Assembly (NCBI GenBank): GCA_000004985.1
Contig: GG738917.1
DNA: 64,000 nt
Strand: one strand, 5' to 3'
Source of the DNA: Naegleria gruberi
Taxonomy: Eukaryota
Under the pieces are notes generated by a model, which was not told the DNA's origin, searched no databases, and saw only the letters and a program-made list of their open reading frames with translations. This document shows, one piece after another, positions 1-52,103 of the stretch. Both the position numbers and the translations under genes were made by a program. Within the stretch, counting starts at the first letter, position 1. Each line of letters begins with the position of its first letter.

Positions 1-2558
1 GGTTGACTTGTATGCTCGAACTTCTTCCAAGAATGCTAAATTCTCTGCACTTTTTTCCTTCTCCAAGAAGATTCTAAATAATGAAAGGAGAGTTGGATTA
101 TTGAACATGTTTTCAAACTCTTCAATGTTTCTCGCCTCATCAACAGTTCTTCTTCTGGTTAGGGCAGTTCTAATATCCTTTTTTTGCTCCGTTATTTTCA
201 TGACTAGAACGTAGGTATCGACTGGTTTACCACAAGAATTTGAAACTTTTGACTTGGTAATGTTGATAGAGACTGGCACAGGTGTACTCAGTGAAGAGAG
301 CAAATTAGTCTCCCATCTTGTCTCAGAAATTAATAATTCATCAAATTTTTGTAGTAAATCCTTAAAGGGTAGCTTTTCTTGTAAGTATTGGACTATATTA
401 TAGATTTGAGAGGAATTCTTTGCTTTTCTGGCTATTTTAGACTCGAAGGAGGTATTGGCAGATATGATTGAACCGTCACAAGCGTCTATGAAAGCTACAA
501 GCTCTGGTACAGAATTCATTACGCTTCTATTCTTATGTTCCTCAATAGAAGCCCTTTCCAACAGCTTTTTGATTGATTTGTTGTCCTTTTCCAATTTCTT
601 TTGATTTAGATCCAATACATCGAGCATTCCATTAATGAAAAAGGTTAGCTCTCCAACTTCATCCTTATATTTCGATATTAGTCGTTTTGTAAAGTCAGAA
701 GTCTGAATAATTGATTTAACAAATTTTGATACTACCAAAATACGTCTAATTACAAACAGCTCTATAAAAAAGATCATTACTACTAATGATACAAATATAA
801 ATAACCACGATACAAAAATACCCAAAAAACAAGATTCCCAAATGATTACAACGTACTCTCTTACAACATCTGATCTTAGGACAACAGTATATTCCCCATA
901 AAAATCAGGAATCATATGATATGAAACAAGCCTCTTTCTTTTTGAAATTATGCTTGGAAGGTCTTTGTCTTGAGTGCAAACACGAAAATCAGTCTTGAGA
1001 TCATCGAGCAGAACTGTATTTGAATCCAAAGCGAAAACCTTGCTTTGACCATACTGATATCTAACCTCTATTTCATTCGATATTTGAAGAAATACATTTG
1101 AGGCATTTCCTTCAAATGATGTACCAAGTGATTTTCCTAAAAGAGACAACTCTGATTGATTTCTCAAATTGAATACAGTGATACACGAGGATGTAAAGGA
1201 AGAGATTGGTTCTAGTCTATCCAAAGTAATGTACCTTCCAAACATTAGTACATATGGCACACCAAATGTTTTCATAATGGAAATCATGAGAATGTGAGTG
1301 CTGTTAGTGTGAGGTTCAGCAGTCCCAAGAAATATTATTGGATTCTCAACATTAATGTATCCAGATTTGATAATTTCATCCTGTAGATTGTTCTTATTAA
1401 TATCCAAAGGTAAAGTCAAAACCTCTTTAGGAGGTTTTATAGGCTTTCCATTATGACATGCAGAAAGGTATGTTAATTCACTCGAATAATTGTAAATTCC
1501 AACAATATCAACTCCAACAATATCCAATCTTGGACAATTGAATAACTCTCCAAATATTGATATTGTTCCTCTTCAGTAGTGGTACTCTCTTTGAAATCTA
1601 TAGCTCTATTATGTCCATACTCGTATAACTTTGATTCTAATTTGTGCATCTTATTGAGAAATGTAACAGTTCCTGAAATACCCATCGATTGACCTTTTGT
1701 TGCCTCAACATTATCTGAGGCATATGCAGAGAAAATTGCAAGTAGTCCAAACAAGAAAATTGTCAGTAGTACCACAAAAACAAATAGACCACTCCAAACA
1801 CAAACTCTCAAATTCATAAACATATCCTTCCAAATGTTTTGTTGCTGTTTAATCCTCTCTTGATATTTGGCAATGAAAGCAGTGATAGAATACTGCTTAC
1901 TCACCTCATCAGAGCTTGGATTACTTCTCGGTGTCAATGTCGAAGGAGCAAACAAAGAAGGAGATGCTACCTTCTCAATCAAGAGAGGTCCCACAGAGAC
2001 TGGGGATTGTGGCGAACCCACTCTAAACATTATTTCTTGTTGTCCATTCATACTTTGATTATTATTACTATTATTATTGAATTTGTTAGTGTTGGGTGTT
2101 GTTGGTTCATCTCGACTGCTTTGAATAGTTAGAGGTGATGAAACATTTCTCCTCCTCGTGTAAACATCGACCATTCCTGATTGGATGGGTGTTGAAGAAG
2201 AAAGAGGTTCCACTGAAAAACCAAACATCAAGTCGCTTCCTGTGGGTGATGATGAAGTTAGAGGATTCTGTTGTTCCTCTTCTTGTTGTACTTCTATGAG
2301 AATGTTTGTTCTTCCATATGATGATGATGATAAGGATGAAACCAAATCTTGTTGTTGTTGTTGTTGAATAGCATGCAATATATTACAACTTGTGGGTGTT
2401 GATGTTGAACCCGAAGCACACTCCAATATTATATTATTAATATTAATTGTTGTAGCCTGAACATTGTCCATAATATTATCATCTCCACCAATGCTGCTAC
2501 CACAACCATCATCATCAACTCGACAACAACAATCTGTCTGCTTTCCTTGTTCAGACAT
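1..2558 (-). CDS. Receptor-type RGS-domain protein, partial (C-terminus runs past window start). The reading frame switches within 1476-1572, either a +/-1 frameshift or an unresolved junction.
   Basis: Track ORF 1473..2558(-) gives a Q/S/N-rich N-terminus and TM helix CVWSGLFVFVVLLTIFLFGLLAIF. My translation of the minus strand from 1572 down to 1 is stop-free in a second frame. It gives a ~300-aa presumably extracellular region, a second TM (LGIFVSWLFIFVSLVVMIFFIELFVI), a coiled-coil segment, then FENMFNNPTLLSLFRIFLEKEKSAENLAFLEEVRAYKST at coordinates ~120-1, a textbook start of an RGS domain. Both frames are open over 1476-1572, which holds an imperfect 15-nt tandem duplication (gatattgttggagttgatattgttggaa). 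No GT..AG intron reconciles the frames. Confidence 0.55.
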
Positions 2559-2953: not shown

Positions 2954-4162
2954 ATGAATGTCAAACACAAGTATCCATGTACACATTGCAAATCGGAAGT
3001 TTATTTTCAACCATCGTCGACTATGGCATCCAATTCAGCAGCCCTCGATGATGGTTTTGTCTTTATTACATCAAATGATGGTGGTGGCGGACAAACACCA
3101 ACCAACAATACAACAAGCCTAAATATTGAATGTAATCATAGCGGAAAGATTGAACGGATTGAAGATATTGAATATCTAACGGAGGATATATTGAGTTCCA
3201 TCACTATAGGAGAGGATTTGAAAAAGAATACAAAATTATCAACGCTCATCAATGATCTGTATTTATGTAATACTTGTATGACTGATTTGTTTGGTGGACT
3301 TTCGGAGGAAATTGAACAATTAGAATTGGAATGTAAATTATATGATGAAAAATTGAAAAAATCGAAAAAGTTTGATACGAATGGAATGTACAAGAAATAC
3401 ATGAAGGAAATGGATGAATTGAGGAATGAAGAGTTGGTTCTCAGAGAGCAGGTTAATGTTATACAGAATGATAGGCATCGAATTGGAAGAAATATTACAA
3501 GTTTACAAACTGAATATAATACTCAACAGGAAAGCGAGAAGAATTATTGGAAAATTTATTTTCAATTCATTCATAATAATCAGTTCCTTGCAGAGGAAAA
3601 TCGTAGAAAGAGTCAATTGATAGATAAGGAGGATAAAATTAGAAGGAAATCACCTCTTGCTGGCATGTTTCATTTGTGGTATGAAGGATCGTATGGTACG
3701 ATCAATGGATTGAGAATGGGTCGTCTAAGACATGATCCTGTAAGTTGGGAGGAAATCAATGCTGCCTGGGGACTTGCAGTCTTGTTGTTAGATCTTACTG
3801 CCCAACAATTGAATAATTTCAAATTTACCAAATACAAACTGGTGCCAAAGGCCAGCTGTTCATCCATTAAGGAACTGGAGAGTGGAGACAAGTATGATTT
3901 ATTCTTCTCTTCCACTAGAAACATTCAATCATTCAATGAGGGAATGAAATGCTTCCTATTCTGCCTTGAAGAATTATGTCAACATATTGGTATTGTAGTG
4001 CCAGGTTCCTCAATTGGAACTAGATTGATAGTCAAGGCCGATGAGGGTAAGATTCAAGACTTGAGCATGCTGTACAGTGTCGAAAGAGAATACGAGTGGA
4101 CAAAGGCATTGAAGTATCTCATCATTAACCTCAAATTTGTACAAAAGAATGTAATCAAATAA
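2954..4162 (+). CDS. ATG6: Beclin-1 / Atg6 / Vps30 (autophagy and PI3K complex subunit)
   Basis: 402 aa, intronless. Coiled-coil central region, then the Beclin BARA signature FHLWYEGSYGTINGLRMGRLRHDPVSWEEINAAWGLAVLLLDL (compare Beclin [41 protein letters not shown]). Confidence 0.85.
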   Translation: MNVKHKYPCTHCKSEVYFQPSSTMASNSAALDDGFVFITSNDGGGGQTPTNNTTSLNIECNHSGKIERIEDIEYLTEDILSSITIGEDLKKNTKLSTLINDLYLCNTCMTDLFGGLSEEIEQLELECKLYDEKLKKSKKFDTNGMYKKYMKEMDELRNEELVLREQVNVIQNDRHRIGRNITSLQTEYNTQQESEKNYWKIYFQFIHNNQFLAEENRRKSQLIDKEDKIRRKSPLAGMFHLWYEGSYGTINGLRMGRLRHDPVSWEEINAAWGLAVLLLDLTAQQLNNFKFTKYKLVPKASCSSIKELESGDKYDLFFSSTRNIQSFNEGMKCFLFCLEELCQHIGIVVPGSSIGTRLIVKADEGKIQDLSMLYSVEREYEWTKALKYLIINLKFVQKNVIK

Positions 4163-5290: not shown

Positions 5291-5386
5291 CCCAGTGTGG
5301 TCTAATGTTAAGATAGATGACTTTGTGATGAGGTATAATCTACCTTGTTAAATTCATCAGATCCAGGTGCAAGTCCTGGCATTGGG
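5291..5386 (+). tRNA. tRNA-like element: possible intron-containing tRNA (anticodon region CTTTG, Gln-UUG-like) or a degenerate tRNA pseudogene
   Basis: Acceptor-like stem CCCAGTG/CATTGGG (all pairs, one G.U). D-arm-like GTCT-AATGTTA-AGAT lacking the GG dinucleotide. Stem GATGA...TCATC encloses 33 nt (room for anticodon loop plus ~26-nt intron). T-arm-like CCAGG-TGCAAGT-CCTGG, but the T-loop is TGC, not TTC. Confidence 0.3.
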
Positions 5387-5590
5387 TATTTTTGTTTAAT
5401 TATTAAAGCGTGACTAAAACAGGACTAAATACTCTAGATCTTTTATTTGTTGCACAAAAGTTGTAAATCAAGCAGCGGAATTTGTTTGAAAATTTGCTGA
5501 ACCAAGTTTTTTGTTTTGCTTTTCTATTTCAAGGTAATCATCCACCATTCGTTTAAAAATAGAAAAACAAAAAGAAAATAACAAAACAAC

Positions 5591-11612: not shown

Positions 11613-11831
11613 TAAATCAATTCGAATTTCATTTATTATTTCAAAAATTGCAATCTAATCCGTCAAATAAACCAGTTCCCTGCTCAGCACTTCAAGGTTG
11701 AATACCATTTACATTTTCCAGAGCTGGATATTCTCTTACTCGTTTAGATTGCCTAATCGACAAAAAGCTGTAACATTAATCAGAAAGAAAAAAACACGTG
11801 TTCGCTCTTCCTCAAATCAACTTTAAAAAAA

Positions 11832-13525
11832 ATGGATGGACCACAGTGCAATACCAAGTTGATGGTTTTTGTGGGTTTTTGGATTGTGTTGATGGTGATT
11901 ACTGTTTGTTGCTATGCAGAAAACGAAAGCGATGGAACCTATGCTGAAATTGGACTTTCGATTGGAAATACGAATTGGAGAGCTGCTGTTATGGTAAATG
12001 GCAGTTTGGAATGGATTGTGGATAGGAATGGAAATGTAGATCATCCCTCTTTTGAAAATATAAACAAGATTATTGTGAGCAATTATAAAATAATTAAAAG
12101 CAGAGATGGTTATTTATTGGAATCGAATAACAACATTTTTGAAAGAAATGGAACAGTTTATTGTAAAGTTAAATTAGATGATGGAATTGAAAAGGAAATG
12201 ACACCAGAGGAAATTTATTCGGATATTCTACATGATGTGAAAGAACTTGCTTTCCAATATTTGAAACGAAACATTACACATATTTTCCTTTCAGTACCAG
12301 CATATTTTAAACAAACTCAAGAAGATTATATCATACGAAACGCAGCTTCAAAACACAATTTAACAATTGTAAGATCTGTTCGAGATCCAATCATGGCTGT
12401 ACTAGCTCAAGACCATTTCCAAAAGATCAATAACAATTATACGAACGATTCAAACGATGAAAGAACTTTTTTAGTTGTGGATTTGGGAATTAGATCATTG
12501 GCTTTAAATATTGTAAATGATGATTTTGGATTTTATGAAATACTTGCTTCAGAATCCTATGGTCAATTGGGAACTGAAAGATTTCATATGAAACTGAGAG
12601 AATTATTCGTAAAAGAGTTCAAGAAACAACATTTATTGAATGAACAATCAAATATTTTGGAAAATCAACAATTAATGAATTATTATTAAGGCAAGCTGAA
12701 AAATCAATGATTTCCCTTTCAAAAGAAAATTCTGTGCGAGTGAATATTCCATCTTTATTCGATGGAAAGGATTTCACATTCGAATTGACCAGAGAAATAT
12801 TTGAAAATCAATGCCAAGACCTACTTGAACAAATAGCAGCCTCTGTTTTTCGGCTATTCAATCGATCAGATGTATTCGCAGAAGAAATTTCACAAGTGAT
12901 TCTTTCTGGAGGTGGAACACTCAATCCTTCAATAAGGAGTGCAATTATTGATCGATATTTCAAAGATGGAAATGTTTCGAATATTTTACAAGCATCAACC
13001 ATAGGTGCAGCTCTTCAAGCAGCTGTAGTATATGAACCATTCCAAACTGTTTCTTTAATACTGGCACCATTTTCTCTTGGGATTGAGAATTCTGACAGCC
13101 AGTTAGTGAAAATCATTGAAAGAGGAACAGTTCTGCCAACTGTCAAGAAGATGGTCTTTTCTAGTGAAAGAGGATTTCTTGATTCTGTTGATTTTTGTAT
13201 ATTTGCTGGTGATAACATTTATGAAATGGAAAAGAATATTCAATTAGGTCAATTGACCCTGGAAGGAATTGAGTTGACTAAAAAGGGGAAAGCTCAAATT
13301 GAAGTTTCTTTTGAATTAAGTGATAGTTTCATTCTCAATGTTACTGCCACTGATTTAACAACCAAAGTAAAGAGTGAAAAGATAATTTCTTTGGAAAAGT
13401 TAGAAAGTAATAGGGAACTCACTAACAAACTTGAACAGGATGCTACGAAAGATGGAGAAGAGAAGGAAATAAGAAAATTACTCCATACTTATAATTCACC
13501 AAGTGTTCTCCATGAAGAATTGTAA
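11832..13525 (+). CDS. Divergent Hsp70-family protein, ER-type (signal peptide, C-terminal HEEL), interrupted by a +1 frameshift near 12660-12690; possible pseudogene or sequence error
   Basis: Two track ORFs (11832..12689, 12707..13525) in different frames. Read together they align along Hsp70: AEIGLSIGNTNWRAAVM (cf. IGIDLGTTNSCVAV), LSVPAYFKQTQEDYIIRNAASKHNLTIVRSV, VVDLGIRSLALNIV (degenerate DLGGGTFD), then across the shift LLLRQAEKSMISLSKENSVRVNIPSLFDGKDFTFELTREIFENQCQDLL (cf. [45 protein letters not shown]), VILSGGGTLNPSIRSAI, SBD-beta-like EVSFELSDSFILNVTATDLTT. N-terminal hydrophobic MVFVGFWIVLMVITVCCYA; C-terminus ...PSVLHEEL. Confidence 0.6.
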
Positions 13526-16614: not shown

Positions 16615-16961
16615 TTCTTTTTTTTGAGTTTCAATAAGAAGAAGATTTGCAGCCACTTTTATAATTCGAAACAATTCGAAAGTTTAAAGTTGGAACCGGA
16701 ATGTGGAATTGAAATGATGGTCCATTGTTAAGGGTTTATTAATCGGGTTAACGTTATAGTCGCGCTTACTGCAACTGATAACCAACTCAAGAGCGGAAGA
16801 AACGGTGGCGGAGGTATTGAATATGAAGATCTGTAGTTAACAACAATCAATGGTTATATGACCAAACAGTAGATAATATTGTGATAACTTGACCTCAATC
16901 CTTTGTCTGCATTTCCACCATTTTCAAATTGAAATTTCAATATATTTTATGTTTAAAAAAA

Positions 16962-19900
16962 ATGCATCAAGAAAAGAACTTCACGGATGTGCTCATCTCT
17001 TTACATGATATTGATTCCGAAAGTGATAGTGTGAATTTATCTTGCTCTGAATTATTGATCAGCAAATTTCGGCAAACAATATCGGAAAGACTTAAACTAA
17101 ACGAAAGTATTTATGAGCACATGAAACAACTGATAGAGTTGCATGGTGTGAACAAATGTATTCCTTTCGTTCGTGAAAATCCCTTTCCTGATAATGATTG
17201 CACCCTAGCCTTTTTCAAAATCCTTTCTTACTGTGGTTTATTATTGGAATTTGCATCCGAAAGAATACGAAACGATGAAACACTTGCATTGATTGCTGTA
17301 CAGAATGATGTAGATGCCTTGATGGATGTGAGCATTAATTTGAGAGAAAATAGAGATTTTGCTTTAAAAGTTGTGCAATTAGATATTTCAAATAGTTACA
17401 AAAAGAGTACGATGAAATATTTGAACAAATTCAAAGACGATTATGAAATTGTGTTGAAGGCAGTTCGCCAATGTGGTATATCACTTGCAAATACAGCTAT
17501 AAGATTGAGATATGACAAGCAAATAATTGAAGAAGCTGTCAAAAGTTGTGGAACAGCTCTATCCTATGTTCCAAAAGACTTTATCGATAGAAATTTGGTA
17601 ATGAGTGCAATATCATCAGATGCAAAGGCTCTTCAATACGCCCTAAATTTTAAAAACGATAAGGAAGTAGTATTTGCTGCATTTCAAGTGGGTAAAGATT
17701 CTTTTCATTTTGCTTCGGATGAATTGAAATCAGATCGAGAATTTTGTATGAAATTGGTAAAGTTAAATGGCCATACGATTAGATTTTGTTCAGACGAGTT
17801 GAAAAATGATAAGGAGATGGCTATTATTGCTGTGAAATCAGACCCATATTCATATTATTGCCTGCCTCCAAATATGAAGAATGATAGAGAAATATTGTTA
17901 AAATGTGCCTCTATTGCTCTTTTTGACCTACCCTATGATATAAGTAGCGACAGAGAGTTTATGAATAGTTTACTAATTTCAGGAAAGCAATTATTGAACT
18001 TTTTAGAATATTCGGCATTGACAAGAGATTTTGAATTAGAACTCATTGGAAGCAATTGCAATTATCAATATGGTTTATTTGGAAGAATTAAAGAGGAAGA
18101 AGAACTATTCACAAGAATTGTTAACATAGATCCTTCTGCATTCATGTTTGCAACAAGTGATAATATTAGGAACAATAAGCAAATTGTTATGAATGCACTT
18201 TTTTATGAGGCAGAAATTCTCGGTAATATATCAGAGGAATTGAAAAATGACAGAGAATTGTTTGAGCTAGCCATTCGATTACATGATAATGTGCTTTATT
18301 ATGCATCAATGAATTTGAGAAATGATAAAGATTTAGTAATGATGTCAATCGAATATGATGCCTTTTCCTTTCAATACGCCTCTGAAGAATTGAAAAACGA
18401 CAGACAAGTTGCAGAGCTAGCAATAACGATCAATGGCCTTAATTTCCAATTCGCTTCTGAAGATTTGAGAAATGACAAGGAATTTTGCAAACTGGCGACT
18501 CGTAATTCTTACCATTGTTTAAATGAATATTTAGGTGCTGACATGAAAAGAGAAAGGAATCTTATTTTGGAAAATGTAAAGAAGCATACTTCTTTCATTC
18601 CAGATGAATTCAAAGATGATAAGGAAATAGTTTTTGAATCAGTTTCAGTATATGGTGGAAATATTGAACAAGCATCTTTTGATTTAAGAAATGATGATAG
18701 AGAGTTGATACGAACGGCAGTAAGAAATGGCTGTCCATTAAGCTCCTTAGATAACAGAATTATAGATAGAGACCTAGTCTTCGAGTCAATCCTTTATGGT
18801 AGCGCCTTGTGCATCGTGTCCGTTGTTGAGGAATGGCCAGAAATAGTAGATGAGGAAAAAATCATTCATTTTCAAATTTTGAGAGGATGTTGGGATTGGT
18901 TCAAATATTTCAATCCTCTATTAAGAAATGATAAAGATTTTGTAAGGAAATATGTAAAGATTTGTGGCGACATATTGGAATATGTTTCAGAAGATTTTAA
19001 AAATGATAGAGAAATTGTTAAAGAAGCAGTTAGCAACAGTGCAAATGCATTTAAATACGCGTCAGATACACTGAAGAATGACAGAGAAATTGTGGAAGCA
19101 TTGAAGAATGCAGAAGAATCAGTATATTTCATATCAGGTCTTAAAGACAGAGAGTTAGTATTGCAAGCTGCTGAAAAAGGAGTTATTCTAAACACACTCG
19201 AAGAATTTACGTATGATAGAGAAATTGCCTTAAAAACAGTTTCCAAGGCTGGTTCAAAGTTACTTTACCTATCCTACGATCTAAGAAGTGATAGGGAAAT
19301 TGTATTAGAAGCTGTAAAGAATGACCACTCATCTCTTGAATATTCCATGTATGATTCAAGATATGATAAGGATGTCATCTTGAAAGCAGATCTCCCTCTC
19401 AGCCATGTGGTACCAGCTCTAAGAAATGATAGAGAGCTCGTACTAAAGTTGCTCGAAAAACCCCTAAAAAAGTACAAATATCATTTCGATATTATAGATG
19501 ATACGATTGAGCTAGAGTATTATTCTGGATCACAATTCGTGTATCTCTCAGATGAATTGAAAGAAGAATTCAAATCGAATAAGGAAATTATGTTGAAAGC
19601 CATTAAATTTGGGCCAACAGCAATCAATTATGCCTCCAAGGAGCTTCAAAATGATGAAGAGTTTGTATTGGAAGCTGCTCAAATCAATGGTATGGTACTA
19701 AACCATGTACTACCGAAATTTAAACATAATCGAAATGTTGTAATGAAGGCAGTTCAACAAAATGGTATGTCCCTCTCTCATGCATGCAATGAATTACAAA
19801 ACGACATTGAAATAGTTCAAAACGCTCTCAAATCCCATGTTTGTGCTTTTGAATATGCCGGTTATAAATTGAGAGGCGACAAGGAATTTGTATTGGAAAT

Positions 19901-20213
19901 GACTAGACAAAATTATCATGCTTTTAAGTTTGCCAGTAGTGATTTACAAGGTGATGAAGACATTATTTCACAAGTTATGGAAATTAATATTGAGACACTG
20001 AATTGTGCCTCCTATTCATTGCGGAATAATGTTGACTTCTTGAAGAGGATGAACAAGGATAATAGACTTGTGGAGAGGGCTTCCTTCAATCTACAAAGAT
20101 CCATTAACATGCAAGGATTGTTGGATATTGAAGAAACAGACCCAAAGAAATATGAAAAGCTACTAGATTTTTACATTGACAGGTTAGTTGTGGCCACAGA
20201 GAACTCAAATTGA
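16962..20213 (+). CDS. DUF4116-repeat protein (tandem ~40-aa units of the ELKNDxE-V..AV..NG.AL.YAS type)
   Basis: 1083 aa from ATG 16962 (track start 16929 is TTG). More than 20 repeats, e.g. ASERIRNDETLALIAVQNDVDALMDVS, ASDELKSDREFCMKLVKLNGHTIRFCS, ASEELKNDRQVAELAITINGLNFQFAS, ASKELQNDEEFVLEAAQINGMVLNHV. Confidence 0.7.
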   Translation: MHQEKNFTDVLISLHDIDSESDSVNLSCSELLISKFRQTISERLKLNESIYEHMKQLIELHGVNKCIPFVRENPFPDNDCTLAFFKILSYCGLLLEFASERIRNDETLALIAVQNDVDALMDVSINLRENRDFALKVVQLDISNSYKKSTMKYLNKFKDDYEIVLKAVRQCGISLANTAIRLRYDKQIIEEAVKSCGTALSYVPKDFIDRNLVMSAISSDAKALQYALNFKNDKEVVFAAFQVGKDSFHFASDELKSDREFCMKLVKLNGHTIRFCSDELKNDKEMAIIAVKSDPYSYYCLPPNMKNDREILLKCASIALFDLPYDISSDREFMNSLLISGKQLLNFLEYSALTRDFELELIGSNCNYQYGLFGRIKEEEELFTRIVNIDPSAFMFATSDNIRNNKQIVMNALFYEAEILGNISEELKNDRELFELAIRLHDNVLYYASMNLRNDKDLVMMSIEYDAFSFQYASEELKNDRQVAELAITINGLNFQFASEDLRNDKEFCKLATRNSYHCLNEYLGADMKRERNLILENVKKHTSFIPDEFKDDKEIVFESVSVYGGNIEQASFDLRNDDRELIRTAVRNGCPLSSLDNRIIDRDLVFESILYGSALCIVSVVEEWPEIVDEEKIIHFQILRGCWDWFKYFNPLLRNDKDFVRKYVKICGDILEYVSEDFKNDREIVKEAVSNSANAFKYASDTLKNDREIVEALKNAEESVYFISGLKDRELVLQAAEKGVILNTLEEFTYDREIALKTVSKAGSKLLYLSYDLRSDREIVLEAVKNDHSSLEYSMYDSRYDKDVILKADLPLSHVVPALRNDRELVLKLLEKPLKKYKYHFDIIDDTIELEYYSGSQFVYLSDELKEEFKSNKEIMLKAIKFGPTAINYASKELQNDEEFVLEAAQINGMVLNHVLPKFKHNRNVVMKAVQQNGMSLSHACNELQNDIEIVQNALKSHVCAFEYAGYKLRGDKEFVLEMTRQNYHAFKFASSDLQGDEDIISQVMEINIETLNCASYSLRNNVDFLKRMNKDNRLVERASFNLQRSINMQGLLDIEETDPKKYEKLLDFYIDRLVVATENSN

Positions 20214-35529: not shown

Positions 35530-37701
35530 TTATTTTACTTGCTTTGCTGTAATTAATTCAACAATCATCTTATTACTTGGAGAATCAATCTTGAATTTGT
35601 TAGCCAACTCTACAAATGCTCCATTGAGATACATAATTTCAGTTTCGTTTTGATTTTCCAAGTCCACTAACATGCTACAACGATTTGAACTAGTCAACTC
35701 ACAAATTTTCATTACCTTTTCATAAACTACTTGCTCAATAGACTTGTCTTTCATTTCTTGAGCTGTAGCCAATGAATCTATTGCTCCAGGAATCATTCTT
35801 AAAATATTGACTTGTTCCTTAATTAGAATTTTCATCAAATTTTGTAAGGCGAGATTTTGTAATAAATTTCCATTTTCAATTTGGTAGAGGGAGGCAAGCG
35901 GATTGATGGTGGAATTGATAATAAGTTTCATCCAATCAACAAACTTTGGTTTTCCATCAATTATTGTCGAATTCAGTATTGAGCCAATTTGGAATTGTGA
36001 ATTATTGGAAAATACATTTCCTAATTTGGTGTCTACAAGTAGTTTTGGAACGCTAATTGATATTTTGTCAGTGTTCGATTGCTCCAATACTCTTCTATCT
36101 TCACTATTAAGAATTGTCTTGACTCCTGAGTATAAATTGATTGGTGACATTGAAACGCCTTCCAAGTTGAGTTTTGAAAGAGAGGTCAAGATATTTTGCT
36201 CATTTCCATATCCATTCTGAACAGTTATAATATGCTTAATCTTTGATAAAGATGGAAGTCCTTCCATCATGTTCTGAATTGCTTGATTAGTGGCATAACT
36301 CTTGACAGCTATAATCAAGACATCAATTTCACCATTCCAAGCATTCTTCAATTCTTCATCACTTATAATATTTACAATAGTATTTCTAATTGATTTAGTT
36401 TCATTTCCTTCCCTTACTTGTGTGGAAATTTCAATATTTTCTTCAAGTTTCGTCTTTTTTCCACTCAGCAATTTCACATCACAATTACTTGATAAACTAG
36501 AAGCAAACAATGAACCAACAGATCCTGAACCAAGAATTAATACCTTTGGTCTTTCGCCTACATTATTATAATCTACACCCAATTGTCCATCTTTCTTTCC
36601 ATCAACATTTGACTTGATTATCTCATTAACTTGATGATTTTTCACATCTTTTTCAATATATTCCGAAACTACACTATATACATCATCCTTAATAATAAAA
36701 GTATGTGATTTGTGTGGAAATTCTCCATTCACAACATCTTTCACATAATTTTCACAAGCATCAATCATGATTGGATTCAAATTCAAATATTGTTTACAAA
36801 ACTTTGGAGTAAACTTTGAATACATTCCCAATAAATCATGATAAACCAACACCTGACCTGAACATTTACCAGATCCAATACCAATTGTTGGAATTCCAAT
36901 GTGTTTCGTAATGAGAGAGGCTAATTTCTGAGGAACGCATTCCAGTACAATTAAGCTAGCTCCAGCTTCCTTAACTGCCAATGCATCTTTCCATAATTGG
37001 ATAGCTTCTGAGCAGTTCTTTGAACCAACCACTCTGAAACCTCCCAATTGATTGCATGATTGTGGGGTTAGGCCAATATGTGCAATGACAACTATTCCAG
37101 CATCGACAATTGACTTGATTTTTGAGGCAACTCTTTCACCTCCTTCAAGTTTGACAGAATTCATTTCTGCTTCCTTAATAAACCTAACAGCATTGTGAAC
37201 TGCAGCGTCATCTGTGACATAGGAACCAAATGGCATGTCACCGATCAAGAATGAATATTGACTTCCTCTCTTGACAGCTTTAGCATGATGAATCATTTCG
37301 TCCATCGTAACGCTAGTTGTGTTTGGTTGACCTAAGGCAGTCATTGACAAGGAATCACCCACCAATATCATATCACAATTTGTTTGGTCAACCACAGAAG
37401 CAGAATGAAAATCAGTTGCTGTGAGCATTGTCAAGGGAATTTGATTTTGATACTTGTAATTGATGCATTGCAAAGTGACAGGTACTAATTCTTGCCTTAT
37501 AGATTCTTTCTCTTGTGAGGATGCCTTATTACTCTTTGGACTTGTGTGCACTGAATAGTTTCGAATAGTCTTCTTTCCATTTATGGTAGACGAAACCCAA
37601 CTCTTTCTTGTGGACTGAACAAGATTCAGCAACGAGAGGACGTCATCCCTTCCCAAACTCTTCCTTACAAGACCACCACCTATTTTTGTAATCATCTTCA
37701 T
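35530..37701 (-). CDS. panB-panE: Bifunctional ketopantoate hydroxymethyltransferase (PanB) - ketopantoate reductase (PanE/ApbA) fusion
   Basis: ATG 37701 (track 37719 is TTG). Basic N-terminal extension; PanB region VPVTLQCINYKYQNQIPLTMLTATDFHSASVVDQTNCDMILVGDSLSMTALGQPNTTSVTMDEMIHHAKAVKRG...IAHIGLTPQ; then from ~residue 385 a PanE/ApbA domain with dinucleotide fold VLILGSGSVGSLFASSL, conserved IIAVKSYAT and an ApbA_C-like tail. Confidence 0.85.
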   Translation of the reverse strand: MKMITKIGGGLVRKSLGRDDVLSLLNLVQSTRKSWVSSTINGKKTIRNYSVHTSPKSNKASSQEKESIRQELVPVTLQCINYKYQNQIPLTMLTATDFHSASVVDQTNCDMILVGDSLSMTALGQPNTTSVTMDEMIHHAKAVKRGSQYSFLIGDMPFGSYVTDDAAVHNAVRFIKEAEMNSVKLEGGERVASKIKSIVDAGIVVIAHIGLTPQSCNQLGGFRVVGSKNCSEAIQLWKDALAVKEAGASLIVLECVPQKLASLITKHIGIPTIGIGSGKCSGQVLVYHDLLGMYSKFTPKFCKQYLNLNPIMIDACENYVKDVVNGEFPHKSHTFIIKDDVYSVVSEYIEKDVKNHQVNEIIKSNVDGKKDGQLGVDYNNVGERPKVLILGSGSVGSLFASSLSSNCDVKLLSGKKTKLEENIEISTQVREGNETKSIRNTIVNIISDEELKNAWNGEIDVLIIAVKSYATNQAIQNMMEGLPSLSKIKHIITVQNGYGNEQNILTSLSKLNLEGVSMSPINLYSGVKTILNSEDRRVLEQSNTDKISISVPKLLVDTKLGNVFSNNSQFQIGSILNSTIIDGKPKFVDWMKLIINSTINPLASLYQIENGNLLQNLALQNLMKILIKEQVNILRMIPGAIDSLATAQEMKDKSIEQVVYEKVMKICELTSSNRCSMLVDLENQNETEIMYLNGAFVELANKFKIDSPSNKMIVELITAKQVK

Positions 37702-38245
37702 TTTCTCAATTTTTTTCAATATTGTTTCGGTTGCTGAGAAGTCAAAGACGGAAATTTAAAAACCTTCGAGAGATTAAACTCAAATATCCAGCAACTGTTG
37801 TGAATGATAATAATAATTAACGTCCAACAACCCTCACAGATTGGATATTCTCCGTTAAATTGAAGATTGTTCATTATCACCAACATTTGACTCTAAAATT
37901 AATCTCTTCACTGTTCTTCAACCCTGATTGATATTTGGATCTCTTGCAAAGATTGATAATTTATTTCTTCTTCATGGTGTTGATGAGTTATGTTGTTCTT
38001 ATTTCCATTCTCCGATGGACAAAAAGTTGTTTTTCAGCACAAATATCTTGCACTGTAAATGACGAAGGTTCAAAATTGTAATTTCTTCATTCCTGGAATG
38101 TGTGATTGTAATGTTGAGGTCTGTTACGTATTATTTGAAATTTCCTTCAAATAATTATCCGATTAAGAGACAGTGATTGAGAACTTTAATTTCGCATCAT
38201 TCATTATTCGAAACACAAAAAAACAGTAAAAAAAAATAGAGAGTA

Positions 38246-43141: not shown

Positions 43142-43215
43142 GCCGTCATAGCTCAGTTGGATAGAGCACAGGACTTCTAATCCTGGGGTCGTGGGTTCGA
43201 GCCCCATTGTCGGTA
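43142..43215 (+). tRNA. tRNA-Arg (anticodon UCU)
   Basis: GCCGTCA-TA-GCTC-AGTTGGATA-GAGC-A-CAGGA-CTTCTAA-TCCTG-GGGTC-GTGGG-TTCGAGC-CCCAT-TGTCGGT-A. Canonical D- and T-arms, anticodon loop CU-UCU-AA, no encoded CCA. One T.T mismatch at acceptor pair 5:68. Its reverse complement explains track ORF 42887..43207(-) (GLEPTTPGLEV...). Confidence 0.8.
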
Positions 43216-50426: not shown

Positions 50427-52103
50427 TTATGGAGAGCTTTGAATACGATTGACAATGGCTGAAACAAGGGCAGAATTATGAACCTCTGCGCCAATACCCA
50501 ATGACTCTCTATCCTTCAAAATGCAACCACTCTTCTTAATACACAAACCAATAGCTGTTTCCAAGATGGTTCCAGTAGATCTCAAAGAATAGCATGGAGC
50601 AACCTTTTGACAACCATAGTAAAAGTATCTGGTAGCACAAGCAGAGAATATTGCGTTACCTCTAATATCTTGTAAACAATCCAATTGACAGGCAACACAT
50701 GGAGTGTTATCAACACCAGCAAAGGAAGCTCTGTCAGGCATTGGATAATCTGATGGACCAGTAACGTGGAATGAGCTAGGAGCAGAAGAAACCAAACCCT
50801 TTGCAGTGGAAGATAAAGAATTCTTAACTTCGTTGGTAGTTTTCTTTTCTCCTTCACTGGCCTTTTCTTTCAATTCCTTTTTAACTTCTGCAATCTTGGC
50901 AAGTGTGAATTCAGCTTTCAAACCATACTTTTTGTTCTTTAAAGTATTGAAAGCTTTCTTATTGAGAGATTTCAATCCTCTTCCCTTACCACCTTTCTTT
51001 CCTCTTCTGCCACCTCTTCTTCCACCTCTTTTACCACCTTTACCTCTTCTTCCACCCTTTCCTTTACCTCTTTTACCACCTTTTCCACCTCTTCTTCCAC
51101 CTTTGCCTCCTTTCTTTCCACCTTTACCTTTTCCACCTTTTCCTTTACCTCCTTTACCTTTTCCACCTTTTCCACCTTTTCCACCTTTTCCTTTACCTCC
51201 TTTTCCTTTTCCACCTTTACCTCCTTTTCCACCTTTGCCTCCCTTTCTTCCAGAATTTCCACCTTTCTTTCCACCATTTGATTTTCCTCCTCTTTTACCT
51301 CCTTTGGCTCCAACAGAATTTCCACCACCTCTTTTACCACCTTTTCCTCCTCTACCTTGTTGTTTTGATGTGGAACGAGCTGTACGACCACCACTGAGAG
51401 CTCCTCTCTTTCCAGATGGTTTACCACCAGTAGCACCAGCACCAGCACGTGAAGCAGATTTTCCACCTCTTTTACCACCAACACCACGTGAAGCAGATTT
51501 TCCAACAGATCCAGAAGTAGCACCAGTACCAGTACCAGCACCACCACGTGAAGCTCCTTTTCCACCTCCTCTTTTACCACCTCCTCCAGAAGAAGTAGCA
51601 CCACCACGAGATACTGAACCACTTCCTCTTCCAACAGAACTTCTTCCACTACTACCACCACTACTAGCACCTCCTCTTGAACCAGCTGATGATGATGAAG
51701 ATGATCTTCCACCACCACTACTACTAGCTCCTCCACCTCTAGAACCTCCTCCAGAAGATGATCCACCACCTCCTCTGGAACCTCCTCCAGAAGATGCTCC
51801 ACCACCTCGTGATCCACCTCCACCACCAGAAGATGATCCACCACCACCTCTTGAACCTCCACCGCCTCCACCACGTCCTAAAGTGTTGATGTTATCCTCA
51901 ATTAATTCTACATCTTCATCTTCATCAGAAGACAATGTAGCAGCAGCTACTACAACGGTACGTTTTTTTCCTGATGAACTGGTCTTGGCAGGTCCACGAC
52001 ATTGACTTGCTGTGGCATTGACACTTTCACATAGTAAAAAACATTGTATGCTGATAATTGCCAGAATAGCGAAAAGTAAAAGACGAATATTCCACTGTGG
52101 CAT
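50427..52103 (-). CDS. Secreted Gly/Arg/Ser/Lys-rich protein with conserved C-terminal 8-Cys domain (family member 1)
   Basis: ATG 52103; signal peptide MPQWNIRLLLFAILAIISIQCFLLCESVNA; TASQCRGP; dibasic SGKKR; acidic patch DEDEDVELIED; ~250 aa of GGGGSRGGG / GGKGGKGKGGKG repeats. C-terminus: ...FHVTGPSDYPMPDRASFAGVDNTPCVACQLDCLQDIRGNAIFSACATRYFYYGCQKVAPCYSLRSTGTILETAIGLCIKKSGCILKDRESLGIGAEVHNSALVSAIVNRIQSSP, alignable residue-for-residue with members 2 and 3. Confidence 0.75.
   Translation of the reverse strand: MPQWNIRLLLFAILAIISIQCFLLCESVNATASQCRGPAKTSSSGKKRTVVVAAATLSSDEDEDVELIEDNINTLGRGGGGGGSRGGGGSSSGGGGGSRGGGASSGGGSRGGGGSSSGGGSRGGGASSSGGGRSSSSSSAGSRGGASSGGSSGRSSVGRGSGSVSRGGATSSGGGGKRGGGKGASRGGAGTGTGATSGSVGKSASRGVGGKRGGKSASRAGAGATGGKPSGKRGALSGGRTARSTSKQQGRGGKGGKRGGGNSVGAKGGKRGGKSNGGKKGGNSGRKGGKGGKGGKGGKGKGGKGKGGKGGKGGKGKGGKGKGGKGKGGKKGGKGGRRGGKGGKRGKGKGGRRGKGGKRGGRRGGRRGKKGGKGRGLKSLNKKAFNTLKNKKYGLKAEFTLAKIAEVKKELKEKASEGEKKTTNEVKNSLSSTAKGLVSSAPSSFHVTGPSDYPMPDRASFAGVDNTPCVACQLDCLQDIRGNAIFSACATRYFYYGCQKVAPCYSLRSTGTILETAIGLCIKKSGCILKDRESLGIGAEVHNSALVSAIVNRIQSSP
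50990..51330. repeat. Degenerate tandem codon repeats (GGT/GGA/AAA/AGA units) encoding KGGKGKGG / RGGKGG
   Basis: Visible as cctttacctttt / ccaccttttcc periodicity on the + strand. Source of shadow ORFs 50806..52005(+) and 50972..51874(-). Confidence 0.6.

What the first reader, a model, noticed from the sequence alone, without database searches (positions are those of the whole stretch)
1..2558. Receptor-like RGS protein (TM - ~300-aa ectodomain - TM - coiled coil - RGS) broken by a frameshift at a 15-nt tandem duplication
The minus strand from 2558 to 1 encodes a low-complexity cytoplasmic N-terminus, a TM helix, a ~300-aa region with the predicted topology of an extracellular sensor, a second TM, a coiled-coil linker and an RGS domain that runs off the window. 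This topology is like bacterial sensor kinases or Cache receptors, but the output is a GAP for G-alpha. The two halves are in different frames and overlap over 1476-1572, exactly where an imperfect duplication (GATATTGTTGGAG/TTGATATTGTTGGAA) lies. That points to replication slippage (real pseudogenisation or allelic variant) or an assembly error, not an intron.
Basis: seen in the sequence. Interest (0 to 1): 0.55.

Follow-up and report, generated by a model that had tools for sequence, protein, structure and literature searches.

The report
Frameshifted sensor-type RGS receptor gene
This Naegleria gruberi gene joins a bacterial-style membrane sensor to a G-protein off-switch (RGS) domain; its reading frame is broken by one missing base, not by the nearby 15-base repeat, and the public gene model hides the break by splicing out the whole sensor.

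Summary
On the minus strand, a 361-codon ORF (2558-1473) and a frame open from 1572 to 1 overlap, and a real 15-nt tandem repeat lies at 1524-1495.

The locus is N. gruberi NAEGRDRAFT_53637. It belongs to an expanded heterolobosean family with the layout TM, CHASE4 ectodomain, TM, HAMP, PAS, RGS.

The stated cause is wrong.
- Fifteen nt is a multiple of three, and the repeat adds no length relative to 14 relatives.
- A family profile hands over between the two frames at 1545-1541, upstream of the repeat.
- Adding one T (GAGAGTTAT[T]TCAATTG, giving SYFNC) yields a gap-free alignment and the best profile score.
- No intron is present. Real introns in this window are 46-73 nt and start GTAAGT or GTATGT.

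The public model bridges the break with a spurious 1,202-nt intron (1904-703) that removes TM1, CHASE4, TM2 and half of HAMP.

I could not decide whether the lost base is biological (a young pseudogene or null allele) or a consensus error. I lean about 55:45 to biological.

The frameshift itself is mundane. The family is moderately interesting: a bacterial sensor cassette driving a G-alpha GAP.

The parts
1473..2558 (-). Upstream ORF (361 codons plus TAA). It encodes the low-complexity cytoplasmic N-terminus, TM1 and the first ~63 ectodomain residues, followed by a 21-residue out-of-frame tail.
   Evidence: Its first 218 residues are identical to public model XP_002670289.1.
1731..1799 (-). 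TM1 (VWSGLFVFVVLLTIFLFGLLAIF), preceded by the family motif (S/N)LRxK/C at 1814-1800.
   Evidence: Kyte-Doolittle peak, alignment A1 and AF2 helix 5-71.
829..1730 (-). CHASE4-type ectodomain of about 300 aa: a stalk helix, a membrane-distal PAS-like module and a membrane-proximal module. It is read in frame A down to 1542 and in frame B from 1542.
1541..1545 (-). Frameshift site. One base is missing relative to the family frame. The best placement is in the T run of GAGAGTTAT(T)TCAATTG, restoring ...YQYLESYFNCPRL...
   Evidence: The family profile covers positions 60-169 on the upstream ORF (ending at residue 340) and 168-700 on the downstream frame (starting at residue 10). Repair at 1542 scores 373.2 bits, against 366.6 for repair at 1553, 340.0 for the 1620-1571 intron model and 340.1 for the downstream frame alone. 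The codon-usage switch falls at 1565-1535.
1495..1524 (-). In-frame 15-nt tandem repeat of two copies (DIVGV / DIVGI). It is not the cause of the frameshift.
   Evidence: It aligns without a gap in A1. In the AF2 model, copy 1 is the end of a helix and copy 2 is the first beta strand, with pLDDT 85-91.
1..1572 (-). Downstream open frame (524 codons, runs off the window). It encodes the rest of the ectodomain, TM2, HAMP, PAS and the start of RGS.
   Evidence: phmmer finds 17 representatives at E<1e-30, many covering residues ~70-523.
763..828 (-). TM2 (FLGIFVSWLFIFVSLVVMIFFI).
   Evidence: AF2 helix 324-375 runs continuously into HAMP.
607..762 (-). HAMP domain (ELFVIRRIL...DEVGELTFFINGMLDVL).
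   Evidence: Pfam gives no HAMP hit for this copy. HAMP is found in 39 of 66 relatives. The family profile matches the Af1503 HAMP structure 2y21_A at E 0.0019. The D-E...N..L motif is nearly invariant.
178..606 (-). Signalling helix or coiled coil (606-544) followed by a cytoplasmic PAS domain (543-178).
1..126 (-). N-terminal third of the RGS domain. It continues beyond the window.
   Evidence: Pfam RGS 28.2 bits, above the 23.9 cut-off. The family profile matches RGS2, RGS4 and RGS5 structures at E 1e-12 to 1e-13.
703..1904 (-). The 'intron' of public model NAEGRDRAFT_53637 (GTGAGT...TTCAG, 1,202 nt). I judge it spurious.
   Evidence: maps the model exactly onto the window. The 'intron' is 67% AT, like coding sequence, and is fully covered by the two open frames. 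The chance of 290 open codons is 3e-10. It removes sequence homologous to CHASE4, TM2 and HAMP of the family.

Best explanation
The locus is Naegleria gruberi NEG-M gene NAEGRDRAFT_53637. It is the most divergent of at least eight N. gruberi members of a heterolobosean family of intron-less, two-pass transmembrane receptor-type RGS proteins. The layout is: low-complexity N-tail, TM1, CHASE4 ectodomain, TM2, HAMP, signalling helix, PAS, RGS.

Inferred mechanism for the family: a ligand binds the CHASE4 ectodomain. The signal passes through TM2 and HAMP to the PAS domain. That modulates the GTPase-accelerating activity of the RGS domain towards Naegleria's self-activating G-alpha subunits. The result is a receptor that switches G proteins off rather than on.

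In this copy, as assembled, the frame is broken by the loss of one base at 1545-1541, most probably a T in GAGAGTTAT(T)TCAATTG. The 15-nt repeat 17-20 nt downstream is an in-frame, length-neutral five-codon repeat and is not the cause. There is no intron. The public model's 1,202-nt intron is a gene-prediction artefact that deletes the sensor.

Shown here: the anatomy, family membership, the position and type of the lesion, and the error in the public model. Inferred: the signalling mechanism. Unresolved: whether the missing base is biological (a young pseudogene or null allele, about 55%) or a consensus error in the draft assembly (about 45%).
For: - Identity: the public model matches the window with 0 mismatches.
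- Family: 42 of the 66 best 50%-identity representatives carry RGS, 44 carry CHASE4 and 39 carry HAMP. Named members come from N. gruberi, N. fowleri, N. lovaniensis and Willaertia magna. Two environmental relatives are single uninterrupted ORFs.
- Lesion: the profile hands over between frames at positions 168/169, the one-T repair gives the best score, the alignment is gap-free across the junction and the repeat, and codon usage switches at 1565-1535.
- No intron: the four bona fide introns in the window are 46-73 nt and start GTAAGT or GTATGT. None lies at the junction.
- Mechanistic context: N. fowleri G-alpha subunits are self-activating and RGS GAP activity is the regulated step (PMC9283941). 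N. gruberi has 229 RGS proteins (PMC3971589).
- Leaning to a real lesion: this copy keeps only 72% of family-conserved columns, against 78-95% for the others. The public model loses RGS homology 36 codons beyond the window.
Against: - Pfam does not call CHASE4 (12.4 bits against 26.2) or HAMP on this copy. Membership rests on homology to relatives and on a predicted structure built from an alignment of only 15 sequences.
- The exact missing base cannot be fixed. Repair at 1553 scores only 6.6 bits less.
- Against a real lesion: both halves are fully open, with equal codon bias (0.22 bits per codon each), and there is no other defect in 2.56 kb. The source is a draft assembly. A second gene in the window has the same kind of one-base gap.
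- No independent sequence of this locus was available.
- No GAP activity or ligand is known for any family member.
Confidence: 0.8

Rival explanations
1. The missing base is a consensus error of the draft assembly. The organism has an intact, functional CHASE4-HAMP-PAS-RGS gene. This is a branch of the best explanation: same anatomy, different status of the lesion.
For: The lesion is a single one-base gap next to a short T run. Both halves are open with equal coding bias. The repaired junction folds confidently. A second gene in the same 64 kb, the HSP70-like gene at 11757-13525, shows the same kind of one-base gap.
Against: This is the most divergent family member, with the lowest retention of conserved columns. 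The public model loses RGS homology just outside the window, which hints at a second defect. Both frameshifted genes are divergent members of expanded families, where dying copies are expected.
Confidence: 0.4
2. One reading: replication slippage that created the 15-nt tandem duplication is itself the frameshifting event.
For: The repeat is real, non-random and lies inside the 97-nt overlap of the two frames.
Against: Fifteen is a multiple of three. The repeat aligns without any gap to 14 relatives. The profile hand-over and the codon-usage switch lie 17-20 nt upstream. All the other short tandem repeats found in the window by the same scan also have periods that are multiples of three, which fits in-frame coding repeats.
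Confidence: 0.04
3. The frames are joined by splicing, either by the public model's 1,202-nt intron (1904-703) or by a short non-canonical intron such as 1620-1571.
For: GT...AG pairs of the right phase exist. The public model uses GTGAGT...CAG.
Against: The 1,202-nt 'intron' has coding-like composition, is covered by open frames (P about 3e-10) and contains the family's CHASE4, TM2 and HAMP. The 50-nt candidate deletes the conserved LYEY...WD helix and scores no better than the downstream half alone (340.0 against 340.1 bits). Real introns here are 46-73 nt with GTAAGT or GTATGT donors. Two environmental relatives have no intron.
Confidence: 0.03
4. The break is bridged by programmed -1 ribosomal frameshifting, or the two ORFs are separate genes.
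For: The shift needed is -1. No other evidence supports this.
Against: There is no X XXY YYZ slippery heptamer at GAGAGUUAUUCAA. The downstream frame has no Met before residue 96 and no promoter-like AT-rich spacer. The two halves are the two parts of one domain in every relative.
Confidence: 0.01

Closest known systems
Intact family members: N. gruberi NAEGRDRAFT_54250, _60041, _74903, _48593, _76151, _74859 and XP_002671054; N. fowleri FDP41_001999; N. lovaniensis C9374_004675; Willaertia magna ABK040_009326. All are unnamed 'predicted', 'RGS domain-containing' or 'HAMP domain-containing' proteins.
   Same: The order of modules is the same: TM, CHASE4, TM, HAMP, PAS, RGS. They are 22-29% identical over the whole receptor, share conserved Cys, Arg and DE..G.L..N.ML motifs, and align without gaps at the junction.
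   Different: Those are uninterrupted. This copy has a one-base frame break, is the most divergent member (72% of conserved columns kept), has a longer low-complexity N-tail, and has no close orthologue (best hit 33% identity).
Seven-transmembrane RGS proteins (Arabidopsis AtRGS1; N. fowleri 7TM RGS1-4)
   Same: They are membrane receptors with a C-terminal RGS GAP domain acting on self-activating G-alpha subunits, so GTP hydrolysis is the regulated step (PMC9283941).
   Different: This protein has two TM helices, not seven. Its sensing part is a bacterial-type CHASE4 ectodomain, and transmission runs through HAMP and PAS. There is no homology outside the RGS box.
Pseudomonas aeruginosa PA2072 / IsmP and other bacterial CHASE4 receptors
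   Different: The bacterial outputs are GGDEF/EAL, histidine kinase, HD-GYP or cyclase. Here the output is a eukaryotic RGS domain. There is no detectable sequence match to the solved CHASE4 chains.
Bacterial sensor kinases and chemoreceptors with a double PAS-like ectodomain (WalK, McpB/McpC, LuxQ, DctB)
   Same: The overall arrangement of stalk helix, two stacked PAS-like modules, TM, HAMP and PAS is shared.
   Different: The output domains differ. The similarity is of fold and architecture only.

Membership tests
RGS domain proteins (PF00615) | A sequence match to the RGS box above the curated cut-off. | tested here: met
   28.2 bits against 23.9 on residues 486-524 of the downstream frame, covering only profile positions 2-40 of 117 because the window ends. 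The family profile matches RGS2, RGS4 and RGS5 structures at E 1e-12 to 1e-13.
RGS domain proteins (PF00615) | A complete nine-helix RGS box. | tested here: inconclusive
   The rest of the domain lies outside the window. The public model covers profile positions 2-82 of 117 only and loses family homology after residue 488. I could not fetch the DNA.
RGS domain proteins (PF00615) | GAP activity on a G-alpha subunit. | not testable with these tools
   The S-x-E-N motif (KSAEN) and the LN(I/V)S Asn are present by alignment (and the P0001 sequence). Their correspondence to the G-alpha-contact residues of RGS4 rests on my own recollection and was not tested here.
CHASE4 sensor domain (PF05228) | A Pfam match above the cut-off of 26.2 bits. 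| tested here: not met
   This copy scores 12.4 bits (E 0.17), and only after repair of the frame. Relatives pass: P0002 35.9, P0003 45.2, P0005 47.3 and P0009 38.4 bits, and 44 of 66 relatives match at E<=0.001.
CHASE4 sensor domain (PF05228) | An extracytoplasmic position between two TM helices, and the CHASE4 fold: a scaffold helix, a membrane-distal PAS-like subdomain and a small membrane-proximal subdomain (PMC12625894). | tested here: met
HAMP domain (PF00672) | A Pfam match, and two amphipathic helices with a connector immediately after a TM helix. | tested here: inconclusive
   Pfam gives no hit for this copy even at E<=10. Against that, 39 of 66 relatives match, the family profile matches Af1503 HAMP at E 0.0019, the AF2 model shows helix, loop and helix directly after TM2, and the DE.G.L...N.ML motif is kept.
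PAS domain | The PAS fold: a five-stranded sheet with flanking helices. | tested here: met
7TM-RGS receptors (AtRGS1 type) | Seven transmembrane helices N-terminal to the RGS box. | tested here: not met
   There are only two hydrophobic segments. This protein works like a 7TM-RGS receptor, as a receptor-GAP, but is not a member of that family.
Processed or unitary pseudogene | Multiple disabling lesions or loss of coding signature. | tested here: not met
   There is one lesion in 2.56 kb, and codon bias is positive and equal on both sides. Conservation is somewhat reduced. A second lesion outside the window is possible but unseen.

The most novel reading that the evidence does not exclude
The CHASE4-HAMP-PAS-RGS proteins of Heterolobosea may be an undescribed class of ligand-regulated receptor GAPs. 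There are at least 42 clusters at 50% identity, eight or more in N. gruberi. In this reading, a complete bacterial sensor and transmitter cassette, probably acquired by horizontal transfer, was rewired onto a eukaryotic RGS output to control self-activating G-alpha subunits. Published censuses would have missed the family. The Cache/CHASE survey started from prokaryote-type output domains and reports a single Cache-clan protein in Naegleria (PMC4822843). The N. fowleri G-protein survey mentions 79 non-7TM RGS proteins without naming HAMP or CHASE (PMC9283941).
Probability: 0.45. Interest if true: 0.6.

Novelty: new variant of a known kind. Interest (0 to 1): 0.33.

Why it matters
For this locus, the practical result is a correction. 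The public protein XP_002670289.1 is a mis-model that lacks its sensor, both TM helices and half of HAMP, and probably fuses a neighbouring gene. The gene is either a young pseudogene or carries a one-base assembly error.

More broadly, the family shows that a bacterial CHASE4-HAMP-PAS input module can drive a eukaryotic RGS output. In an organism whose G-alpha subunits load GTP on their own, such receptor-GAPs, rather than GPCRs, may be a main way in which external cues reach heterotrimeric G proteins. That would give a simple two-TM counterpart to plant AtRGS1 and a tractable system for asking how HAMP signalling can regulate a GAP. The pathogen N. fowleri has a family member (FDP41_001999).

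Tried and rejected
1. The search for homologous proteins was run three times: on the downstream frame, the repaired ectodomain and the cytoplasmic part. It found nothing, not even P0001, which is identical over 233 residues. The tool failed its positive control, so these negatives are not evidence of absence.
2. The look-up of encoding contigs for the Atg6 ORF, the upstream ORF and P0001 found nothing on record. I could not extend the sequence past position 1 or obtain an independent copy.
3. An exact DNA pattern across the junction, with a variable gap, found no hit in JGI metagenome contigs.
4. I enumerated all GT...AG pairs of the right phase (226). None resembles the real introns of the window, and the best short candidate (1620-1571) fails the profile test.
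5. I looked for a -1 slippery site and found none.
6. TRF does not report the 15-nt repeat. I verified it with a custom scan.
8. Synteny gave nothing. The best relative, P0002, lies on an environmental contig with unrelated neighbours, so no orthologue was identified and no dN/dS estimate is possible.
9. Anantharaman et al. 2011 (Gene 475:63), the paper most likely to have described such RGS architectures, is not held. The supplementary architecture figures of PMC3971589 are not held either.
Full report
**What the window is.** The window has 31-37% GC apart from one 42% island. It is densely packed with long ORFs, has short GTAAGT/GTATGT introns, and carries an intron-containing tRNA. An exhaustive phmmer search with the downstream frame found one 99%-identical protein, P0001. 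This is XP_002670289.1 / EFC37545.1, NAEGRDRAFT_53637, a 'predicted protein' of Naegleria gruberi on a 223-kb scaffold. It maps onto the window with no mismatch. The window is therefore the public N. gruberi NEG-M assembly.

**Checking the observation.**
- The minus-strand ORF runs from ATG 2558 to TAA 1475-1473 (361 aa).
- A second frame is open from 1572, after TGA 1575-1573, to position 1 (524 aa). The overlap is 1476-1572.
- The repaired protein has exactly two strongly hydrophobic segments, TM1 at 1799-1731 and TM2 at 828-763, about 300 residues apart.
- The last 39 residues match Pfam RGS above its cut-off (28.2 against 23.9 bits, profile 2-40 of 117).
- The imperfect repeat GATATTGTTGGAGTT / GATATTGTTGGAATT occupies 1524-1495. 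A 12-nt exact repeat at offset 15 is expected 0.13 times per window under order-2 Markov simulation. It is a real small tandem repeat, although TRF does not list it.

**What the gene is.** The phmmer search returned 282 representatives at E<=0.001 and 17 at E<1e-30, many of them covering the query from about residue 70 to 523.
- Pfam on relatives gives CHASE4 (35.9-47.3 bits against a cut-off of 26.2 in four of five), HAMP, weak PAS, and a complete C-terminal RGS domain.
- Of the 66 best 50%-identity representatives, 42 carry RGS, 44 carry CHASE4 and 39 carry HAMP. The rest are CHASE4-HAMP-PAS proteins with histidine-kinase, GGDEF, HD-GYP or cyclase outputs.
- Named members come from N. gruberi (at least seven other loci), N. 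fowleri, N. lovaniensis and Willaertia magna.
- Others sit on environmental contigs with eukaryotic neighbours, where they are single uninterrupted ORFs.

An AlphaFold2 model was built from the repaired TM1-to-window-end sequence, using 14 relatives as the alignment. Its mean pLDDT is 74.9. It shows TM1 continuing into a long stalk helix, two stacked alpha/beta modules, TM2 running into a helix-loop-helix, a PAS fold, and the first RGS helices.
- Foldseek's top hits are WalK, McpB/McpC and dCache ligand-binding domains.
- On this copy alone, Pfam does not reach threshold for CHASE4 (12.4 bits, and only after repair) and does not report HAMP. For those two domains, membership rests on family homology and the predicted fold.

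**Where and what the frame break is.** A 15-nt unit cannot shift a frame, so the duplication cannot be the lesion. Three independent tests place the break upstream of it.
1. A codon-usage log-odds scan, trained on eleven long ORFs of the window, is positive for the upstream frame down to about 1565 and for the downstream frame from about 1550.
2. In an alignment with 14 relatives, the sequence obtained by adding one T beside TT 1542-1541 reads ...EEEQYQYLESYFNCPRLDIVGVDIVGIYNY... It aligns without any gap to ...QDLLKSFFACEYMDRVNLNFAMYY... and its equivalents. SYFNC fits the family motif x-Y-F-x-C. The two repeat copies DIVGV and DIVGI occupy columns that every relative also has, so the repeat adds no length.
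3. A profile HMM of the 14 relatives matches the upstream ORF over profile positions 60-169, ending at residue 340 (coordinate about 1541). It matches the downstream frame over 168-700, starting at residue 10 (about 1545).

The profile scores for the competing models are:

| Model | Score (bits) |
|---|---|
| One-T repair at 1542 | 373.2 |
| One-T repair in the TTT at 1555-1553 | 366.6 |
| Downstream frame alone | 340.1 |
| Best short-intron model (1620-1571) | 340.0 |

The Tyr codon (1544-1542) and the Phe codon (1542-1540) share base 1542. One base is therefore missing relative to the family frame. In the model, the junction lies in one of the most confident stretches (pLDDT 78-91).

**No intron, no recoding.** The four unambiguous introns in the window are 46-73 nt, start GTAAGT or GTATGT, end TAG, and are mostly 76-82% AT. 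Nothing like that lies near the junction, where AT content is the same as in flanking coding sequence. The only GTATG at 1620 would give 23-nt, 50-nt or longer 'introns' that remove the conserved LYEY...WD helix. There is no X XXY YYZ slippery heptamer.

**The public gene model.** P0001 consists of codons 1-218 of the upstream ORF (2558-1905) joined to the downstream frame at 702. This implies a 1,202-nt intron, GTGAGT...TTCAG, at 1904-703. That 'intron' is 67% AT, like exons. It is entirely covered by the two long open frames; the chance of 290 open codons at this composition is about 3e-10. It contains the regions homologous to TM1, CHASE4, TM2 and the first HAMP helix of every relative. It is a gene-prediction workaround for the frameshift.

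The same model stops matching the family and the RGS profile at residue 488 (...NISHAVYETE), 36 codons beyond the window edge. It then carries a 439-residue tail with no Pfam domain. Either a second lesion or a second mis-splice lies just outside the window. I could not obtain that DNA.

**Real lesion or assembly error?** This could not be decided.

For an error:
- There is a single one-base gap next to a short homopolymer.
- Both halves are fully open, with equal codon bias (0.22 bits per codon).
- The repaired product is predicted to fold.
- An HSP70-like gene in the same window (open frames 11757-12689 and 12644-13525) has the same kind of intron-less one-base gap near 12666-12676.

For a real lesion:
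- This copy is the most divergent of the 15 aligned. Its best identity is 29%, against 31-49% for the others.
- It keeps only 72% of the columns conserved in the others, against 78-95%.
- It has no close orthologue.
- The public model hints at a second defect in the RGS box.
- Both frameshifted genes are divergent members of expanded families. N. gruberi has 229 RGS proteins (PMC3971589).

I put about 55% on a young pseudogene or null allele and 45% on a consensus error. No independent copy was found. P0001's 90% cluster has one member, and the junction pattern is absent from JGI metagenomes. The three homologous-protein searches failed to recover even P0001 and carry no weight.

**How it most likely works (inferred).** Bosch et al. 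showed that N. fowleri G-alpha subunits exchange nucleotide spontaneously, so GTP hydrolysis is rate-limiting. They also showed that RGS domains of membrane 7TM-RGS proteins accelerate it. They count 28 7TM-RGS and 79 other RGS proteins without mentioning HAMP or CHASE (PMC9283941).

Bacterial CHASE4 domains are periplasmic ligand sensors. PA2072 senses ATP and Fe3+ (PMC12625894).

The simplest reading has five steps:
1. The family members are dimeric two-pass receptors.
2. A ligand binds the CHASE4 ectodomain.
3. Binding displaces TM2.
4. HAMP converts that displacement into a change in the signalling helix and PAS domain.
5. This sets the GAP activity or accessibility of the RGS domain towards a self-activating G-alpha.

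None of these steps was tested. As assembled, this copy would make only a 361-residue truncated protein.

**Comparison and novelty.** Receptor-RGS fusions are known as 7TM-RGS proteins, and TM-containing RGS proteins have been counted across eukaryotes (PMC3971589). This protein is not a 7TM-RGS: it has two TM helices. A CHASE4-HAMP-PAS input on an RGS output is not described in any paper I could search. The Cache/CHASE census states that Naegleria has the Cache clan in one protein only, a cyclase, because it started from prokaryote-type outputs (PMC4822843). The paper most likely to have covered it, Anantharaman et al. 2011, was not available. Public databases already hold the proteins under automatic names.

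I therefore rate the family as a new variant of a known kind, the specific frameshift as ordinary, and the overall interest as modest.

Noticed in passing
window 11757-13525 (+), junction about 12644-12689: A divergent HSP70-like gene is split into two frames that overlap by 46 nt. Pfam HSP70 covers profile positions 94-256 and then 266-526, leaving no room for an intron. One base appears to be missing near CAACAATTAAT (about 12666-12676). This is the same kind of lesion as in the RGS gene.
   Followed up: partly
beyond window position 1 (public model XP_002670289.1, residues 489-927): The public model loses all homology to the RGS box and to the family 36 codons past the window edge. It continues with a 439-aa tail that has no Pfam domain. 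This is probably a second lesion or a fusion with the neighbouring gene.
   Followed up: partly
window 5291-5387 (+) and 43142-43215 (+): Rfam finds a 97-nt tRNA at 5291-5387, apparently intron-containing, which ARAGORN does not report. A tRNA-Arg(TCT) lies at 43142-43215.
   Followed up: no
window 35530-37719 (-): A single ORF fuses ketopantoate hydroxymethyltransferase (PanB) with ketopantoate reductase (PanE/ApbA). These are two consecutive pantothenate-pathway enzymes in one protein.
   Followed up: no
window 50427-52103 (both strands): A GC-richer island (42%) carries many in-frame 18-, 24- and 30-nt tandem repeats and long ORFs on both strands. The 558-aa minus-strand ORF has the strongest codon bias in the window but no Pfam match.
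   Followed up: no
window 2954-4162 (+): An Atg6/Beclin homologue (APG6 BARA domain, E 6e-41) is transcribed divergently from the RGS gene across a 395-nt AT-rich spacer.
   Followed up: no
window 16929-20213 (+): A 1,094-aa ORF is made of 18 DUF4116 repeats (E 9e-177).
   Followed up: no
loci L001 (3272-5878) and L002 (3009-4700): Environmental contigs from ENA and JGI metagenomes carry intact, intron-less CHASE4-RGS genes next to eukaryotic-type genes (Ras, AATF/TRAUB). Unsampled protists also have the family.
   Followed up: partly
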